Assembly (NCBI GenBank): GCA_013239625.1
Contig: MU053559.1
Location: 1,240,001-1,304,000, forward strand
Direction: 5' to 3'
Source: Lama guanicoe
Taxonomy: Eukaryota
Length of the DNA: 64,000 bases
Each line of letters opens with the position of its first letter. The first letter of the stretch is position 1. Below, one piece after another: positions 3,101-29,639 of this stretch. The translations under genes were made by a program, and so were the position numbers. Under the pieces are notes generated by a model. That model was not told where the DNA came from. It saw nothing but the letters and a program-made list of their open reading frames with translations, and ran no database searches.

Positions 3101-3682
3101 TTTCAGCGGCGAGCTGAGACTGCAGCTGGCCCAAGGCCAGTGAGCAGGCAGCGGCAGAGGTAGCCAAATGCCCTGGGAAGGCAGGCCCAGGGCAGGCAGG
3201 CGCCAGGAGGCCTGAGGGGCCTGTCACAGAGCGCAGGAGAAGGGCAGAGGGAGGCTTGGGGCAGCTGCGGCAGGTGGGGCACCCTTCCTCCCAGAGGCCT
3301 GGGCACAATGCCAAGGAAAGGGGCACAGATGGACAACAGAGAGAAGGTGTTCGGAGAGGACGGCAGAGATAGGGGAGAAAACGGAGAAAGGAAAATGAAA
3401 ATAACGCAAGTCTAAGAAAAACTCAGCTGGAAGGCAGCACACCTAGGGACCAGTCTGGGAGCGGGAACAGTCAGTGGACCCACCTGGTGCAGAGCTGAGT
3501 GGGCCCCGCCCAGAGCGAGGTTCCCCAGGGGCAGCACGTGTGGGGGCCTCTCCAAGGTCACTGCCGCCGCCGCCACTCTCATCCAGGCCTATCTGTTCAG
3601 GGGCACCATTGGTCTTGTCTACACCTCGGCCCCCTCGGAGTGTCATTGACAGCTGCCGTTTGATCTTCTTCATCCGATCCAT
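111..3682 (-). CDS. CDK16: Cyclin-dependent kinase 16 (PCTAIRE-1), multi-exon CDS, 3' part outside window
   Basis: Exons read with GT-AG boundaries: 3484-3682 ([15 protein letters not shown]; acceptor boundary 3688), 2738-2871, 2509-2634, 2367-2423 ([19 protein letters not shown]), [PCTAIRE exon in gap 2138-2285], 1443-1537, 1285-1347, 908-gap (LKLADF), 633-753 ([25 protein letters not shown]), 426-523, [gap 200-356], 111-153 ([14 protein letters not shown]). Phases are consistent. Confidence 0.97.
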
Positions 3683-4489
3683 GGCGACCTGAGCAGGGGA
3701 GATGGATGGGAATGGGTCCCACATTAGCATTTGCCTGACCACCACGGGCCCCCTAAAACCTATGACAGCCCAGTGAGGCGCACAGCCATGAACATGTGTC
3801 AGTATCTGCCCAACCACCATGGAGCGCTGGAACCACTCAGGATTCCTGGAAACCTGCCATGGATGAGGACCTTTGTCAGTGCCTGCCACCTATGACAGCC
3901 AGCCCCTGGGGACCCTGCTCCTAAGTGGCTCACCTGGGTACTGCGGCTTGGGTGGCTGGCTGAGGGAAAGGGCCGAACTGATGAAGTGCTGGCCTCTATG
4001 GGAGCAGCCTCACTGTGGGAGCAGAGGGCTTCACAGCAGGTATTCTCGACTGCACTGGCACTGATGGACCCAGCCACCTGTCGGGCACGGGGCTTGCCCA
4101 GGACCTCAGGACCACTGACACGACCCCGGCCACGTCCAAAGGATGCCATGTTCCTCTGGCACCAGCCCCACATCACCCCCAACTACCAAGGCAGATCCCT
4201 CCCTGTGGCCACAAGAACTCTCCTGCTTCCCCCAGCAACCAACGTCAAGGTAACCAGTGTACTATCCCACTGGTTACTCAGGTGAGGGGGGGTTGGGGGC
4301 TGCCTAGACCCAACCACTGGGTGGGGTCGTGGGGGGGATCTTGATGCATACCAGCTATGCTGAGAGCTGCTGGAAAGGTTCAATCAGGTTGGGACCATAG
4401 GGTCCGACCCAGATTTTTACAAGCCCAGTCACATTTCTCCTCTATTTGGGAATATATCACATCTCCCTTATCATCCCAAATAAACATCT

Positions 4490-5006: not shown

Positions 5007-6099
5007 GGGGTGGGGGGGCAAAGGAGGGCCTAGAAACCAATCTCTGTCAGGGTGAGGAGGGTGAGTCCCTGCTACTCATGAACAACCCCAGACAAGGTGG
5101 CCCAGGGACACTGGCATTGGCAAGATGACCTAGATGGGGCTGCTGGAGGGAATGGGGCCACCAAAAAGCTGAGGCCGGCCTTCTTCTGCTTCCTCCTGGG
5201 CTCTGGGCCAACAAGGAGGGGGAAAGACCTGGCCCAGGAACCATCTGGACTCACAGCAGGGCCTAAGATGGCCCTGGGCCCAAGGGAAGTGGAGCTAGAT
5301 AGGAGGTTGAGGATGAGGCTGGGGGTGGATTCGAGGAGAGAAGTGGGTCATCTGTCACCTTGAAATCAGGTGCTTACCCCAGTGGCTTCCAAACCCCGCT
5401 TCTGCCTGCCTGAACTCATCACCCCCAGGATGGGCAGAGGGGCCAGCCTAGCAGGAAGACCTCAGTAAAGAGGATGAAGTCTATCCAAAGAACCCAGGAT
5501 AACATTAACGAAAAAAATCCTGACCCAGGAGGCTGAACACTGAACATGAAGCTGAGGAAGGTGAAGTGTGGCCAGGCCCCAAAGACTGTCTTGTATCCGT
5601 ATGGCGCAGATATCCAGTCGCTTTGCCTGCTGGGGTAGGGAATGGGGGATCTGAGGCGGGGAGGAGGGTGGCTGTAAGTAGGGCTAGATGGAGGATGAGG
5701 AGGGAGCCAGAAGGAATCATGAGTCTATGACCGCTAAGTGGAAACCCCAAGGGTTTGGCATGTTCCAGAGTTCATTTTGGGGGGAATTTTAGGAAGATGG
5801 GGTACAAAATCTGTGTATCATACAACACCCCCAGCAGGGGGACCCTGTGAACAGAGACATTTGAACATCAATATGCAGTAAAACTTGTAAATATCATTTC
5901 CGTTTTCTGAGATTTTTAGACTTTCAGAATAGTGAAGGAGGGAGCAAGAAAACTGGATACACAACCCCTCTCAAAAAAGAGCACATGTCCTTCTTGACAC
6001 CCCCCACCCAGAGGACACACCCATCCTCAGAATACCCTCACATCCAAGTATACTCACCACCTCACATCACACCGACCACTGTGGACACAGTCATCACAC

Positions 6100-8010
6100 T
6101 CTACTAACTCCCATAGGGACACACCATCCTCATCCTGTCCAGAACCATCCCATAAGCACACACTGGCCTCTCACTGTGTCCTGCTTCCTTCAGTACACAC
6201 TGGACCCTCAAGAAGGCTTCTTTGCATCTTAACTGCCATCAGCACTGCAATTTCCCTATTTATCTCTAACCTCCATCAGCATACAAAGCCCCAGCAAAGC
6301 ACTGAACTCTGTTAGCACACAATTGGGCCCCTCTAAATTAACTCTTACCACCATACTCTTGGGCCCCTCGCAGGCCCAGGTGCTTGTTAGCTTCTCCACA
6401 GCACTCACTGTTCCCCCAACATGATTCCGACCCCTATTAACATGCACTTGGGACCCGCTACAGCTAACCCACATTAGCACTCACTGGACCTTCACACTGC
6501 CCTGAATCCCATTAACACAAAGTGCACCCTGCAGATTCCGATTCCTGACCTGTTTTGCCCACACTCGGACCCCTCCACAGCTAGGATCATCATTAACATG
6601 TATTCTGGTCCTCCCACTACCCTGTCCCCCTACCTCTCATCAGCACAAGCTGGACCTTCACTTCACCGTGACCCCTATTAGCACTCACTGGGCCTCACAC
6701 AGTGTCACCCCATTAGCACAGCCTGAACCTGGACTCGGCTCTATTCTCCAGGGACGCACAAACACACTGTTCTATAATGGCCTGACCCTCATTAGCACAC
6801 ACAGATCCTCATTCAGCCCGGAACCCCATTAGCCCACTCCAGCCCTCCATGGCTCTAATCCACTTTAGCACACCTAGATCTTCCCATAGTCCTGTCCTTT
6901 ATTTCTCTTCGCTTCAACTCCTCCACAGCTCTAAGCCCTGTTGGCTGACACTTGGATCCTTTCATAGCCCTGAGCGTCCCTATGGCACACTAGATCCCCT
7001 CCACAGTTCTACCCCCCATTAGCATTCCTGGGGACCTCAACACACCACAGGCCCCCACGGACACATGGGCACACACAGCCTTCATAATGTTCTGACGCTC
7101 ATTAGCATATTCCAGACCTCATACTGCTCTGATTCTCGCCCCCTCCCACCCCGGCACACATTTAAGCGCCTCCATGACTCTAAACCCACCTTAGCAGTCA
7201 TTAGAACTTCATCTGTTACCCTGCCCCTTCTTAGGGCATCCTAGAGTCTCTCAGATCCCCTGACCTCATGGACACACATACACACTGATCTCATACCATC
7301 TTGATCCTTAATACACTGACCCTTTTACAGTGCTAAGATACTTCCCTTGCCACCAACCACCACCCCACACACATAGCCACAATTCTGATACCCATTAGCA
7401 GAGGCTCAGGTCTTCCACCACTCTGCCCCCATTAGCTTACACTGGGCCTTAGACTACCCAGACCTTCATTACCATATGCACATATCCTCTATGGCTATGA
7501 CCGCCCCCATTAGCACCCTCTCAATACGGGAGTTTTTCCACTACCCTGCCCTCCATGAGCACACCCTGGACCCTCACACCCTGCAGTCCCTCATGGACAA
7601 ATGCACAGTAGTAACACCATCCTAACCCTCATTACCACAGTCAGGGCCTCAGAGCCCAGATCCTATGAGCACACCTTCTGGTACCTCTACCATCTCATCC
7701 CCCAGTGACACACACAGGGCCTCTCTACAGCTATAACCCCATTTGCATACCTCGTACTCCTCTGACGTCCTCTCCCCTGTTATACATCTCCTCGGGTCCC
7801 TCCATCGCCTTGCACCGCCCCTCTGTTAGCACACACTGGGCCTCAAAACCTCACACAGCGGTAAGACTTTTATTATTATCACATGATCGGACCCCTCCAC
7901 AGCTCAGGTCCCCATTAGCAAACCTCTAGTCTTTCACCACACGGCCACCTATCTCCACACCCTCTGGTCCTTCGATCACCCCGCTCCCCATTAGCACCCA
8001 CACTACTTCC
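6100..8010. repeat. Decayed ~37-39 bp minisatellite in CDK16 intron 1 (core CCCATTAGCACAC)
   Basis: Core variants at 6436, 6473, 6511, 6592, 6639, 6677, 6712, 6791, 6828, 6864, 7018, 7101, 7394, 7431, 7468, 7509, 7741, 7825, 7914 and 7990. Confidence 0.8.
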
Positions 8011-9520
8011 CATCTCCAGCTTCCAGACCGGGCCCAGGGCGGGGCCAAGGTCAGGGAGGCCCCGAATGACCCCCCGTCCCGGTGCATTCTGGGAAACTCG
8101 CCGCGGGAGGGGGCACATGCCAGCGGTGCAGCCCAGACCCCTGGGCACCGCCCGGGGTCTGGGTTGGTTCTGCAGAAGGAANNNNNNNNNNNNNNNNNNN
8201 NNNNNNNNNNNNNNNNNNNNNNNNNNNNNNNNNNNNNNNNNNNNNNNNNNNNNNNNNNNNNNNNNNNNNNNNNNNNNNNNNNNNNNNNNNNNNNNNNNNN
8301 NNNNNNNNNNNNNNNNNNNNNNNNNNNNNNNNNNNNNNNNNNNNNNNNNNNNNNNNNNNNNNNNNNNNNNNNNNNNNNNNNNNNNNNNNNNNNNNNNNNN
8401 NNNNNNNNNNNNNNNNNNNNNNNNNNNNNNNNNNNNNNNNNNNNNNNNNNNNNNNNNNNNNNNNNNNNNNNNNNNNNNNNNNNNNNNNNCCGGCTCGAAT
8501 CCGAGAGCTCACGGCGGCTCGCGGTTCAGAGCCGACTGCTCGCAGAGACGCGGCGGATCCCAGGGCCGAGCAGCCAATGGCCCAACCACTGCGCGCGCCG
8601 CGCTCCGCGCATGCGCACGCACGCGCTGGAAAGGGTGAAGTGGGAAGGAGGGGACTCACCTCGGACTGCATGTACCAAAAAACCCGTCCACAGCGGGAGG
8701 GGGCGCGGCCATTGCGCGCCCACTGGGGAATGTGGCGCTGGCCCTGGAACGGCGCCAGGGGGAAGTGTAGAGGTTGCTTAGTACTCAGTTCCGATCTTGC
8801 TAGAAGTTTGCTAGCGCCGAAGCGGGCAGCAGCCAGTGACAGCGTGTCAGTCACCAGTCGCTCCCCCTACTCAGTCTCACTTGGTACATCCCCATGATGG
8901 CAAACGGGACTTTTGCGAGGAAAAAGACAGTGAGGCACTCAGTCCTAGTTTCTTGAGGAGCCTCAAGAGGCAGCGGTTATAAAGGTTCGCGACAAGATGA
9001 TTTTTCTAGGAGAGGTGGCCTGGAGAATCATTGGCTTTTACCACCTTAGATAGGACAGAATCTAGCCCCTCCCAGCTGCTCCCCACTCCTCCCCGATCGC
9101 GAGCTCATTGCCACTGTGAACGTGTGCGGCCCCGCCCTTTGAGGTTGTTGCCCAGCCAATCGGATTTGCTCTCTGGGGTGAGGCAGAGCAAGAATGAAAG
9201 GCGAGGCCTGGCTGAAGAGGCGTGATTTCACTGTCCCGACCACGCCTCTGCCAGCTTTTCATTGGTTTTTACAGTAGAGGAGGCGGGTCCTCCTTTTTGT
9301 TCTGCACGCCTTTCTTACCATAGATCAAGTATCCCACAAGATGATTGGTCAAAAGACCATTCAATCGCGTTTCATCCCGCCTTTAACCCCTCCCATCTCC
9401 GTCAGAGAGGCTCACGGGGTGGAGCCTAGGCTGATGGGAAAGAACAGACCTTTAGAGGGGCGAGTGCATTACTGCGCATGCTTGGGACTTGGGGCTGGAA
9501 GGAGGCCTCTTTTCTGTCTC
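8000..9520 (-). promoter_or_regulatory. CDK16 CpG-island promoter
   Basis: CpG-dense region. NRF1 palindrome GCGCATGCGC at 8607-8616, CCAAT/ATTGG boxes (8574, ~9156, ~9261, ~9344), and GC boxes (~8037, ~9130). The main non-coding exon 1 probably lies in gap 8182-8489. Confidence 0.85.
8660..8671 (-). CDS. CDK16: Coding end of an alternative CDK16 first exon (MQSE), giving the [13 protein letters not shown]-terminus
   Basis: ATG CAG TCC GAG|GTGAGT has a consensus donor. It is in frame with the 6 nt (GTCGCC) preceding the main ATG in exon 2. It matches the MQSEIAMDRMKK human isoform as I recall it. Confidence 0.8.
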
Positions 9521-12462: not shown

Positions 12463-25640
<13,178 letters not shown>

Positions 25641-28600
25641 CGCCTTTCTCCCCAGCCCAGCATAATGAGGGAGAGACTGCAACCCTGGGGGGGGGGAGGG
25701 GGGAAGGAGTGACAAGAATAATGTACTTGTTGGGGAGTCAGAGGAAGGATGTAACTTTAGGTCAGACCCTGCCACTCAACTGTTCTCATTTAACCCTTCT
25801 GGGCTCAGTTCCCCCACCTGTAAAAAAGCAGTGATAATACCACTTACCTAAGCCATGGAGCTGCTGAGGTGATGAGATTTAACCCAGACCAGAGAGCCTA
25901 GCACAGAGCAGGTAGGCAAGAGCAAGCAGCCATTCTCCTCTCCCTTAACCCCGGCAACAGGCGTGCAGGAGGGAAATGCAGCTCAGACAGCCACCAGCGT
26001 AGCATGATGGCAGGAGGTACCTTGTCGGGAACTCAGTCCCCGGAGGGGCTTAGGGAGGAGAGTTTTACAAAGTCCAACTCCCTCCTGCCACCCCAGGGTC
26101 TGGGAGGGGAAAACATTCAGGGCTCATAAAAGAGGTTACTGGGAGACAGAAAACACACACTTCCCAAGCCTTGTCTGCATGTGGAGCCCTGTAAGCAGGC
26201 CAAAAGTAGCAATGGCTGCATGTGTATCAGGAGTCCTCCCTGTGCCAAATGTCAAACTAGGCACTTTATGAGCTGTGCCTCACTTTGTCCTCAGGGCACC
26301 CCCGTGAGGTTTGGACTACTATCAGTAACATCCCCCAACTCACACTGGAAGAAAAAAAATCCGCTAGAGATGTTTTGGTGACTAGATGAAGGGACCCACA
26401 ACCAGAGTAGCCGAGCCGGAACCACACCAGAATCTGCTGACCCTGAGACCCAGGCTGCCTCCCGACGATATGGCATTTCATCCCCTCAATGGTCCCACCC
26501 CTGTAAGGCAGGGTTGATTGTCTTTGCCAGACAAACAGGAAAACCGAAGCTTACGAGGACTAGGTCCCAGAGATAGAACAATGCAGTCCTGCTGTGGAAG
26601 TGATGTCTTGAGGGCGGGGAGAGACGGCAGGATCCCCGATCATTCCCACTCACCCCCAATGCTCCTCTAAGCCTCTGTTCTCCTACACAGAGCCTTTTCT
26701 GACACCCAGTCACACCAAGTACCCTCCCTGTACCTAAGATTCCATCTTGGCACCTGTCACATTGTAGCACTAAACAAGATGACGAGGGCTCCCCACCATC
26801 TACTAAGAGCTTACTGCCTATCAGTCACAGGGTAAAGGGCTTTGTCTAATCCTAACAATGCCCACAAACCAGATAACCTTATACCCACATCACAAAAAAA
26901 GAAAACAAAGGCTCAGAGAACTCCAGTCACTTGCCCAGAGTCATGCAGCTGGTGCTGGATTGTTTGCCAAATGCCTCCTGAGGGAAGAGAGTCAGAACCC
27001 AGGGCCCAGCTCCCAAGGCTAAGAAATGAGGGAAGGGGACCCAGGAGGATGCCTAGGGCCAAGTCACCCAGCTGAACTGTGGGAATGCTAAAACCCAGCC
27101 TAGGTAGGGAGAGACTTGGTGAGTTAGCAGGAAGACCCAGGCAAATCCCATTTTTCCATTTACTGGCTTCCTGACGTGGGCTAGGGAATATTTCCTCTGA
27201 GCCCCATTTTTTTCCCCCAAAGCAGGAACAAATGGAACTATCCTCAAGGAGCTACTAGGGAGATTAAAAAAGTCAAGGTCTGTGGTCAGAACTCAGCAAT
27301 CTGAGGACATAAGCTCCTCCCTGGGCATCTGCAAAAGCCTCCATTACTGGAGTTATCTCCTTGCCTTGTCACCGGTTTGATTGTTTGGGACACACCATCT
27401 CCCCATTCCCTAAATCAGAGATGATCCAGGCCTAAGAGATCTTTGCTATCAGGACCTTTTTACTCTGGGTAGCTAGTGCTGCCAGCAAGGATTCTAAGCA
27501 AGTTTTGGTTGATGATCTGAGAGTGGATTTCAACTGCAGAGGTTTGGAACAGGCCAGTCTCAAGGCAAGCAGAAGGGGTCTGGGGAAGAAACCCCAGGAA
27601 GGAGCCAAAGATCCCCTATTCCCAGCATAAAATTGGTACCCTTTCCCCCTGAACATATGCTCAGGCCCCAGTTAGGATGCAAATACCAGCAACTGTTCAG
27701 CAAAGCTGAACTGAGGCTTAGAGAGTTTCAGAAATTGCCTGGTGATTTTGAAGCCTGGGCATTCTCTACCATCAAAAGCAGAGAAGGTTTGAGGTTAGAG
27801 TCCTGGGCAGATTCGAGAGGGGTAAGGCACAGGGTCAGCTTATCAGTATGGAGAAAAGCTAGGGCACAGGATGCTGGGGCCTGTCAAGCCTCCTGGAAGG
27901 GATTAACTGAGAAATCCCTGGGAATACAAAAGAGAGGAGTCAGGAGTTGTCTGAGCACATGGAGGCTCAGAGGGAGATGGCAAAGGGGATGTTAGAAGCA
28001 CTGGGGGGCAGGAGGGGCGGCGCCAGGCAAGGTTGTTAAGACCCAAACTTGGGTCCTTGGAAAAACAGCTTTTAGAAAAGGTGCAGAAAATTGCACTAGA
28101 GGCTGGAGGCTGCAGAGGAAATGGGTGGGGGATTCCGGGGCCAAAGGAGGCTGCAGGAAGATGCTGGGGTCTGGGGGCCGCCGGGCTGCTCTCCATAGGA
28201 TGCTGGGGCCCTGGGGGGGGGTGTTTCTGCTGGTGGCAGAGGGAAATCTTTGACCAAAAATAACAGGGACCTGCAGGAGAAGAGTTGTCTCTGACACTGA
28301 TGTCAGAGTCCCAGGAGGCTATGAGGGTGGATACTAAAGCTCAGGGTGGGGTTGGGGAGGGATTTCCAATGGAGCACAAAGGCCTTGTGTTGATCTGATT
28401 GGTACTTGCTAGGTCCTGCAGTCACTCAAGAGTGGAAAGGGGAGGCTGAGCCCAGACAATTCTGGCCCTAGAAAGTTCAGTAAGCAAATACTGGCTAGGT
28501 CCCCAAGTGGGGTTGGGTTTCTCTGACTAATTACGTGGGATCCCATGAAGGCTCTGAGAGTAGATGCTGAGAAGGGGGTTTTCTACTCTGATGGAGGACA

Positions 28601-29639
28601 ACTGAGCCTGCTGTGGGAAGGGACAAATGACAGTGATGTTGGGGTCCTACAAAGCTAAAAACAGAAGCTGAAAGCCTGACTGGAGATGCTGGGATCTTGA
28701 AAGGTTCTGAGGATAGATTTTAGGCTCAATGTGAGGTTTAAGGGATCTGTGAGAGAAGGTGGAACCCTGGTTGGCTTTTGAAGGCAGAGATTGATTAAAG
28801 GGGGGGATATGAAAGGCAAGTCTCTGATGGAGGGGGCCAGAAGCCAACGGGGTCTGCAATGGCAGAGGCTGGCAGGGAGATATCTGATGGAGGATTATAT
28901 GTTCAAACAGTTCGTCCCTGGTGTTTGGTCCCCTGGGAGGCTCTGTCCGAAATACCAGGGGTTAGGGGGTCTGACGGGGGGATGCTGAGCCCTGCAAGGG
29001 GTTGTCTCTGAAGAGAATACTGGGACCACAGAAAAGGAGGCATTCCCTTAAAGTAGATGAAGTCCCTGAGAGCAGATTCTAGGAATTAAAGGAGTCTCTA
29101 AAGGTGAATGCGGAGGGGTGTCTCTGAATTAAAACGCTGGCCTGGAGGGGTGTAGGATGGAAGATGCTAGGGCCGGGGTGGGGTTGGGAGACCCCTGAGA
29201 TGTGAAGGAGGGGTCTCCGACATGGAGGCCAGGCCCAAATGGCCTTTCACAGGGTCTAGACCTCTTGGAAGCTCTGAGAGTAGATCGAGTGTGTGTCGCG
29301 GGGGAGGGTGATTCTGAAGGAAGATGCTAGAGAAGACTCTATTTCAGATGAATGAAATCAAATGGACCCTCCCTAAGGTCTGATCCCTCCTGGAAGCTGC
29401 GAGGGCAAGTACTGAGACTAGGTTGTCTGAAGAGATCCTGGGGAAGATCTTTAACGACATGCGCTGGTAGGAGGCTTTGCACAGGAATGCCGACCCGGTA
29501 AGTCTCTACTGCTGACTGAGGGGAGTTCCGACCCGCGATGCAAGGTTCGAGACCGGGCCAGGTCCCTGACTAGGAATGCTAGCCTGAAGCTCTAAAAACA
29601 GATCCTGGGGGTCTGACCCCAAGGTCAGATTCCGGAGCT

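What the first reader, a model, noticed from the sequence alone, without database searches (positions are those of the whole stretch)
6100..8010. Hidden ~38-bp decayed minisatellite in CDK16 intron 1 preserving an octamer/TAATGARAT-like core
Seen: about 1.9 kb immediately downstream of the CpG island consists of many diverged units (approx. CCCTCACAGCTCTGACCCCATTAGCACACACTGGA). Repeated 35-41 bp spacings include 6436-6473-6511, 6639-6677-6712, 6791-6828-6864 and 7394-7431-7468-7509. The core ATTAGCA is much better kept than the flanks. On the - strand it reads RTGCTAATGRG; ATGCTAATGAG at 7098-7108 matches the Oct-1 OCTA+/TAATGARAT-type site, and one unit carries a perfect octamer ATTTGCAT (7741). 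As pre-mRNA it reads UGCUAAU, a branch-point/SF1/QKI-like word. Inference: either a multivalent POU/homeodomain platform or an RNA-level STAR-protein array.
Basis: partly seen in the sequence, partly recalled or inferred. Interest (0 to 1): 0.7.

Follow-up and report, generated by a model that had tools for sequence, protein, structure and literature searches.

The report
Fossil minisatellite in CDK16 first intron
About fifty worn copies of a 38-base repeat fill part of the first intron of the gene CDK16; dozens of equally worn repeats crowd the same stretch of chromosome and thin out at the published seam between the old and the added part of the mammalian X, so this is likely an ancient relic rather than a protein-binding platform.

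Summary
The array is real: about 50 units of 38 bp at 6056-8012 in CDK16 intron 1, 69% identical to their consensus, single-copy, invisible to TRF. The ATTAGCA core is better kept than the rest (0.79 vs 0.67; 0 of 300 simulations reach it). But a column permutation is not significant (p 0.05-0.24), flank words also beat the simulations, and 7 of 43 other arrays spare unrelated words. The named factors fail: no TAATGARAT, one octamer, no QKI ACUAAY on the transcript, and none of 20 YUAAY words has a pyrimidine tract. The context is the new result. A scan of 1.66 Mb found 57 non-zinc-finger periodic stretches on the RBM10 side and none beyond RGN, the published border between the old and added X. 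A GC-rich control on another contig held 3 in 270 kb. A related 33-bp family shares the core, but one member lies the other way round in its gene. Most likely a frozen minisatellite of an old repeat-rich chromosome segment; weak constraint on the core is not excluded. No cross-species or binding data were obtained. The scan noted similar fossils on other DNA, not this stretch.

The parts
6056..8012 (.). Decayed tandem array, about 50 units of 38 bp, C-rich on + and G-rich on the transcribed minus strand (G 38%, C 14%)
   Evidence: mean identity to consensus 0.69, mean pairwise 0.545, best pair 0.79
6473..6479 (+). Example of the core ATTAGCA (UGCUAAU in the pre-mRNA); exact in 10 of 49 units, one mismatch in 20, two in 1, three or more in 18
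7098..7108 (-). ATGCTAATGAG, octamer-like half of an OCTA+ site; it continues CGT, so the GARAT part is missing
7741..7748 (+). The only perfect octamer (ATTTGCAT) of the array
8013..8800 (-). CpG-rich promoter region of CDK16. Exon 1 starts at about 8561; its length in a processed copy (about 308 nt) puts its donor roughly 240 nt before the array (inferred; the donor itself reads N here)
3723..3729 (-). Lone TGCTAAT 35 nt before the exon-2 acceptor, followed by a pyrimidine tract (70% Y): likely the true branch point of intron 1, the same word as the repeat core but not a repeat unit (profile score -13.5 against a median of 13)
3483..3688 (-). CDK16 exon 2 with the start codon at 3682

Best explanation
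This is a real array of about fifty 38-base units in CDK16 intron 1, one of dozens of equally decayed arrays in this chromosome segment, and it is likely a minisatellite that grew long ago, stopped turning over and has likely decayed without a sequence-specific function since. Shown: the array, its star-like divergence, its single-copy state, a related 33-bp family within 400 kb, the regional field of arrays, their tendency to abut CpG islands, and the drop in density at RBM10/RGN. Inferred: the segment was a minisatellite-generating end (or microchromosome-like block) of the ancestral therian X; fusion with the added region made it interstitial and the arrays froze; the spared core partly reflects unit subtypes that already shared it when the array froze.
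For: Star-like decay: pairwise identity 0.52-0.57 at all lags 1-12, best pair 0.79 against 0.80 in a column-shuffled null; JC distance 0.40 to consensus. One match, itself, in a DNA search of the own genome. Of 66 periodic stretches in 1.664 Mb, 63 lie on the RBM10 side (57 after removing 6 zinc-finger exons) and 3 on the other side (2 zinc-finger exons; 1 between RBM10 and RGN). RGN placed by PF08450; the border lies between RGN and RBM10 according to PMC3820666 (passages). Not a GC effect: windows with GC >= 0.50 score above threshold in 49 of 586 (RBM10 side), 0 of 73 (RGN side) and 3 of 341 (control contig); at GC 0.42-0.50 in 70 of 598, 1 of 335 and 0 of 59. All 44 arrays refitted are 0.62-0.79 identical to their consensus, none young. 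17 of 38 CpG islands have an array within 1 kb against 8.3 expected (0 of 5000 shifts). Spared words are not rare: 8 of 44 arrays beat all 40 of their simulations, with unrelated words. Column permutation p 0.05-0.24, and a two-subtype model gains 67 against 49-59 in 8 nulls. Named motifs are absent.
Against: The core excess survives both neutral models (0 of 110; 0 of 300 for uniform and for slippage-weighted indels) and holds in each base class. By excess over its own simulations it is the second strongest of 44 arrays. Core mismatches are bimodal (30 of 49 units with at most one, 1 with two, 18 with three or more), as expected if some units were constrained. In one subtype the core is 0.85 against 0.67. 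The 33-bp family shares exactly this part of the unit (2 of 1000 shuffles). Only one boundary and one 270-kb control were examined; gene density was not matched; 8 of the 57 stretches look by eye like simple repeats or clustered L2 tails. The chromosome-end origin is inference; I found no paper that tests it.
Confidence: 0.65

Rival explanations
1. RNA-level array: the repeated UGCUAAU words act in the pre-mRNA as decoy branch sites or as sites for a UGCU- or CUAAY-binding protein (MBNL, SF1 or QKI class), and modulate splicing to the exon-2 acceptor.
For: On the transcribed strand: 16 CUAAY (8.1 simulated, 2 of 300) and 23 UGCU (10.6, 0 of 300). The best-kept column is the would-be branch A (46 of 48). 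The likely true branch point of this intron is the same word. Exon 2 is also the acceptor of the UBA1-CDK16 read-through RNA in human and mouse (PMC13220885, passages).
Against: No ACUAAY or UACUAAC in sense; none of 20 YUAAY words has a pyrimidine tract (at most 8 of 15 Y before a YAG). YUNAY retention is marginal under the slippage model (40 of 300). The related array just inside the ARAF-like promoter has the C-rich strand as sense and the largest relative lies between two convergent gene ends. No stable RNA fold (z +1.13) and no Rfam match near a gathering score. PMC13220885 attributes the chimera to CTCF loops and saw no enrichment of repeat elements at the junctions (passages).
Confidence: 0.13
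2. Structural role independent of the core: the G-rich non-template strand just inside the promoter favours R-loops or G-quadruplexes and is kept for its skew.
For: GC skew about -0.47 on the + strand over 2 kb, the lowest of the window's 64 one-kb bins; two canonical G4 patterns on the sense strand; the ZNF41-like intron-1 array is also G-rich in sense; arrays are enriched next to CpG islands.
Against: G runs are not over-retained (69 against 80 simulated, 285 of 300 reach it). The ARAF-like intron-1 array has the opposite skew. Skew follows from the unit itself.
Confidence: 0.12
3. DNA-level platform for a POU or other homeodomain factor.
For: TAAT kept in 21 places against 13.3 simulated (6 of 300); position in intron 1 beside the CpG island; clustered promoter repeats such as MSR1 can change promoter output (PMC4725990, passages).
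Against: 0 TAATGARAT, 0 OCTA+ sites, 1 octamer, 2 ATGCTAAT; six units read GTGCTAAT. Two of the four TAAT columns are only averagely kept (31 of 47 and 32 of 47).
Confidence: 0.08
4. Artefact of low-complexity composition or of assembly.
For: TRF does not see it; one simple autocorrelation scan missed it and a second only just reached it (z 4.2).
Against: Profile score 328 against at most 102 in 152 Markov controls and 56 in block shuffles. Nine runs of five studies other than the possible source study hold 0.87-0.97 of its words.
Confidence: 0.02

Closest known systems
MSR1 minisatellite of human 19q13 (PMC4725990, passages)
   Same: 36-38 bp unit, clusters in promoters and first introns, regional concentration; the paper cites a degenerate cluster in the TNNI3 promoter conserved in human and mouse
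   Different: MSR1 is one dispersed family with copy-number variation; this unit is single-copy, 31% diverged and sits among arrays of many unrelated units. No sequence comparison with MSR1 was made
TR-CGIs, imperfect tandem repeats at CpG-island promoters (PMC12307798, abstract and supplement search)
   Same: Imperfect tandem repeat of over 400 bp next to a promoter CpG island; human cases cluster at chromosome ends
   Different: Units there are 50-150 bp and mostly primate-young; this unit is 38 bp, CpG-poor (o/e 0.28) and very old. CDK16, PCTK1 and ARAF have 0 hits in the 8 supplement files (one cut when stored)
Degenerate minisatellites of avian dot chromosomes (bioRxiv 10.1101/2025.10.14.682431, passages)
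   Same: Gene-rich euchromatin dense in degenerate minisatellites, with G4 and direct-repeat motifs enriched in introns
   Different: Units there are 10-30 bp and cover half of the sequence. That the Xp11.23 genes lie on a bird dot chromosome is my recall; the passages read did not confirm it
Clustered YY1 sites in first-intron tandem repeats of imprinted genes such as Peg3 (recalled, not read)
   Same: Decayed first-intron repeat with a short word kept better than its flanks
   Different: There the word is a known, bound motif conserved across species; here no YY1 site (0 GCCATNTT) and no factor can be named
Oct-1 OCTA+ TAATGARAT elements; QKI and SF1 response elements (consensus recalled)
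   Same: Partial word likeness (GCTAATG; CUAAY)
   Different: The defining full words are absent

Membership tests
Decayed (frozen) minisatellite | Head-to-tail units of 10-100 bp, beyond chance | tested here: met
   period 37-39, z 6.9; about 50 units; score 328 vs at most 102 in controls
Decayed (frozen) minisatellite | No recent homogenisation | tested here: met
   flat identity with lag, best pair 0.79 vs 0.80 null
Decayed (frozen) minisatellite | Uniform, unconstrained decay along the unit | tested here: inconclusive
   core beats star models but not column permutation; 7 of 43 other arrays also beat their models
OCTA+ TAATGARAT / octamer array | ATGCTAATGARAT or TAATGARAT words | tested here: not met
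   0 and 0
OCTA+ TAATGARAT / octamer array | Repeated octamers above neutral expectation | tested here: not met
   1 perfect; 4 near-octamers vs 2.1, 46 of 300
OCTA+ TAATGARAT / octamer array | POU2F1 occupancy | not testable with these tools
   no ChIP data on hand
QKI / SF1 (STAR) response element array | ACUAAY core with UAAY half-site, or UACUAAC, on the transcript | tested here: not met
   0 in sense
QKI / SF1 (STAR) response element array | CLIP occupancy | not testable with these tools
   no CLIP data on hand
Functional branch point | yUnAy word followed by pyrimidine tract and YAG | tested here: not met
   0 of 20 YUAAY words in the array; met by the lone word at 3723-3729
MSR1 | Similarity to the MSR1 consensus | not tested
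   no MSR1 sequence was given by a tool
MSR1 | Dispersed multi-locus family | tested here: not met
   one match in the own genome; of 23 pattern-hit loci only this array and its 33-bp relative were arrays
TR-CGI | Imperfect repeat of at least 400 bp beside a promoter CpG island | tested here: met
   1.96 kb, ending at the CpG-rich region
TR-CGI | Unit of 50-150 bp | tested here: not met
   38 bp
TR-CGI | Gain of methylation at the island | not testable with these tools
   no methylation data

The most novel reading that the evidence does not exclude
The CDK16 array is one member of an undescribed field of fossil minisatellites that marks the former end of the therian X and stops at the fusion seam, and in this member selection has kept about thirty UGCUAAU words as a decoy branch-site or UGCU-protein array that tunes use of the exon-2 acceptor shared by CDK16 and the sex-biased UBA1-CDK16 read-through RNA. 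The field reading alone I put at about 0.4; the functional core at about 0.13.
Probability: 0.1. Interest if true: 0.7.

Novelty: new member of a known kind. Interest (0 to 1): 0.36.

Why it matters
As a single element it is ordinary: a worn minisatellite with no nameable binding factor. Two things give it some value. First, arrays like it crowd about a megabase of the old X segment and vanish beyond RGN, so repeats too decayed for TRF may record where a chromosome once ended; that is testable in any mammal genome. Second, if the core proved constrained across species, it would be a repeated RNA or DNA element in the intron that controls an exon used by a sex-biased read-through transcript.

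Tried and rejected
Genome-wide family: DNA searches with the array and with its 33-bp relative each found only themselves. A two-unit pattern gave 3 places, two of them one 19-bp repeat. Two 15-base patterns gave 15 and 8 places; only this array and the relative were arrays. A 16-base pattern of the relative gave 7 scattered places, not examined further. These searches cannot see arrays this diverged elsewhere, so absence is not shown. Orthologues: a metagenome scan for the CDK16 N-terminus found none; no reads or contigs were laid on the stretch, so there are no cross-species differences. Anchored alignment was dropped as circular. Two autocorrelation detectors were too weak and were replaced by a wrap-around profile scan. 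YY1 and CCAAT readings: 0 and 1 sites. Ancestral CpG decay explains at most about three flank column pairs. RNA structure and Rfam: nothing. Kinship of the unit with other arrays: of 65 others compared, only the 33-bp array stood out (p 0.01); two more at 0.035 are within chance; the 16/32-bp family gave 18 of 1000. Dot-chromosome origin could not be confirmed from the papers read.

Full report
Observation. The stretch 6056-8012 is a tandem array. 4-mer matches at lags 35-41 are 0.103 against 0.053 +/- 0.006 in 30 dinucleotide shuffles, with the peak at 37. TRF lists none of its 78 rows here. A wrap-around profile with gaps, which converged on the same unit from three of five different starts, gives about 50 units of 38 bp, 69% identical to their consensus. 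Nine sequencing runs of five studies other than the possible source study hold 0.87-0.97 of the words of 5900-8180, so it is no assembly artefact.

Setting. CDK16 is on the minus strand (names of genes in this report come from recalled peptide likeness and order, except RGN, placed by Pfam PF08450). Three processed copies in the same genome join an exon starting at 8561 straight to exon 2 and match nothing between, so the array is in intron 1, an inferred 240 nt after the donor. The transcript carries the G-rich strand (G 38%, C 14%). The genome is probably a camelid (recalled likeness of a SINE; earlier notes say the same).

Age and history. Units are 54.5% identical pairwise with no trend over lags 1-12; the best pair is 0.79 against 0.80 in a column-shuffled null. 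The JC distance to the consensus is 0.40. At a recalled neutral rate of 2-3 x 10^-9 per site per year that is well over 100 million years; this is an upper estimate because a two-subtype model fits better than chance (gain 67 against 49-59 in 8 nulls).

Is the core constrained? For: core columns are 0.79 identical against 0.67. No star simulation reached this (0 of 110; 0 of 300 under uniform and under slippage-weighted indels). Mismatches per core are bimodal: 10, 20, 1, 12, 4 and 2 units with 0 to 5. Against: permuting the observed columns gives p 0.05-0.24 for windows of 5-13; flank words CCTC and CACAG also beat the simulations (4 and 3 of 300), so the star model is too simple; in one subtype the core is 0.73 against 0.70, in the other 0.85 against 0.67. 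Of 44 arrays refitted in the same way, 8 beat all 40 of their simulations and 13 were reached by at most 2; this array ranks fifth by contrast and second by excess over its own simulations. It was also picked because its core stands out. Verdict: real unevenness, cause open.

Named factors. The array has no TAATGARAT and no OCTA+ site; the 7098-7108 word continues CGT. One perfect octamer exists; near-octamers are 4 against 2.1 simulated (46 of 300). The transcript has no ACUAAY and no UACUAAC, and none of 20 YUAAY words is followed by a pyrimidine tract. UGCU, CUAAY and TAAT are all raised, so the pattern names no factor. The same word TGCTAAT stands alone 35 nt before the exon-2 acceptor with a 70% pyrimidine stretch and is likely the true branch point. 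A 901-nt part folds no better than shuffles (z +1.13); Rfam gives two weak matches far below threshold. Motif consensuses are recalled.

Relatives. The array is single-copy by DNA search. A 33-bp array 117 kb away (C1178, about 1126.5-1129.4 kb, between two convergent zinc-finger genes) shares the block CTGACCC(T)CCATTAGC (2 of 1000 shuffles). Its profile finds two more members, at 993 kb and 860 kb (E 2e-4 and 2e-7; none below E 1.9 in the reversed control). The 993-kb member lies just inside an ARAF-like promoter with the C-rich strand as sense, opposite to CDK16. In the 33-bp array the best-kept window is CAGCAGA, not the shared core.

Regional field. I scanned C1178:240,001-1,904,000 in 3327 windows (threshold 120, controls at most 102). 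It gave 66 stretches: 63 on the RBM10 side (1.07 Mb) and 3 on the other (0.59 Mb). Removing zinc-finger exons leaves 57 and 1, and that one lies between RBM10 and RGN. By eye 4 of the 57 are simple repeats, 4 are clusters of L2 tails and six neighbours at 406-435 kb are one 40-bp family. By GC class the contrast holds: 49 of 586, 0 of 73 and 3 of 341 windows at GC >= 0.50 for the RBM10 side, the RGN side and a 270-kb control around the RBM5-like gene of contig C4216; 70 of 598 (35 of 551 without the 40-bp field), 1 of 335 and 0 of 59 at GC 0.42-0.50. 17 of 38 CpG islands on the RBM10 side have an array within 1 kb against 8.3 expected (0 of 5000 shifts; 59 stretches used, two zinc-finger exons left in by a faulty flag); 0 of 8 on the RGN side and 1 of 16 in the control. 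All 44 refitted arrays are 0.62-0.79 identical to consensus.

Mechanism. PMC3820666 (passages) places the border of the conserved and added X between RGN and RBM10 and reports the elephant centromere there, read as a Robertsonian fusion. Tandem repeats concentrate at telomeric and pericentromeric regions (PMC1794428, passages) and degenerate minisatellites fill bird dot-chromosome euchromatin (10.1101/2025.10.14.682431, passages). I infer that this segment generated minisatellites while it was a chromosome end or microchromosome-like block, often beside CpG islands, and that they froze after fusion. One boundary in one genome cannot prove this; a pericentromeric origin fits as well.

Literature. 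Ten searches showed no description of this array or of the field; subscription journals are mostly outside the library. PMC13220885 (passages) shows exon 2 is the acceptor of a UBA1-CDK16 chimera and reports no repeat enrichment at the junctions. PMC4725990 (passages) describes MSR1. PMC12307798 (abstract; supplement search) has no CDK16 entry. PMC9974502, PMC11835228 and PMC8609325 (passages) did not confirm a dot-chromosome link. Supplements of the bioRxiv preprint were not seen and could bear on that link.

Verdict. New member of a known kind; interest 0.36, mostly for the regional field.

Noticed in passing
G000:C1178:240001-1310000 versus 1340000-1904000: Dense field of decayed minisatellites (57 non-zinc-finger stretches) on the RBM10 side and none beyond RGN, matching the published border of the conserved and added X.
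   Followed up: partly
G000:C1178:1126500-1129400, 992900-993700, 859800-860600: A 33-bp decayed family in three places; shares a 15-base block with the CDK16 unit; one copy lies just inside an ARAF-like promoter.
   Followed up: yes
G000:C1178:966150-967100 and 1121900-1124300: Two copies of a 16/32-bp decayed array that also share flanking sequence, an old local duplication; one lies in a SYN1-like intron.
   Followed up: partly
G000:C1178:1079500-1080600 and 553500-555000: A 22-23-bp G-rich array directly behind the ZNF41-like CpG island, with a relative 525 kb away behind another island.
   Followed up: partly
G000:C1178:406000-435000: About 29 kb of a decayed 40-bp repeat between the GATA1-like and SUV39H1-like genes; further paired families at 389/592 kb (32 bp) and 661-664/1149 kb (53-55 bp).
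   Followed up: no
window 3723-3729 (minus): Likely branch point of CDK16 intron 1, the same seven letters as the repeat core.
   Followed up: partly
window 8660-8671 (minus): An ATG and a donor-like GTGAGT upstream of exon 1 would add four codons in frame to exon 2; probably an alternative first exon (a longer isoform is recalled).
   Followed up: no
L046, L047, L048 (G000:C1448, C3067, C2903): Three processed copies of CDK16, 87-90% identical over exon 2.
   Followed up: partly
window 27400-29200 and 14800-16200: Further G-skewed, weakly periodic stretches near the UBA1-like gene; below the scan threshold.
   Followed up: no
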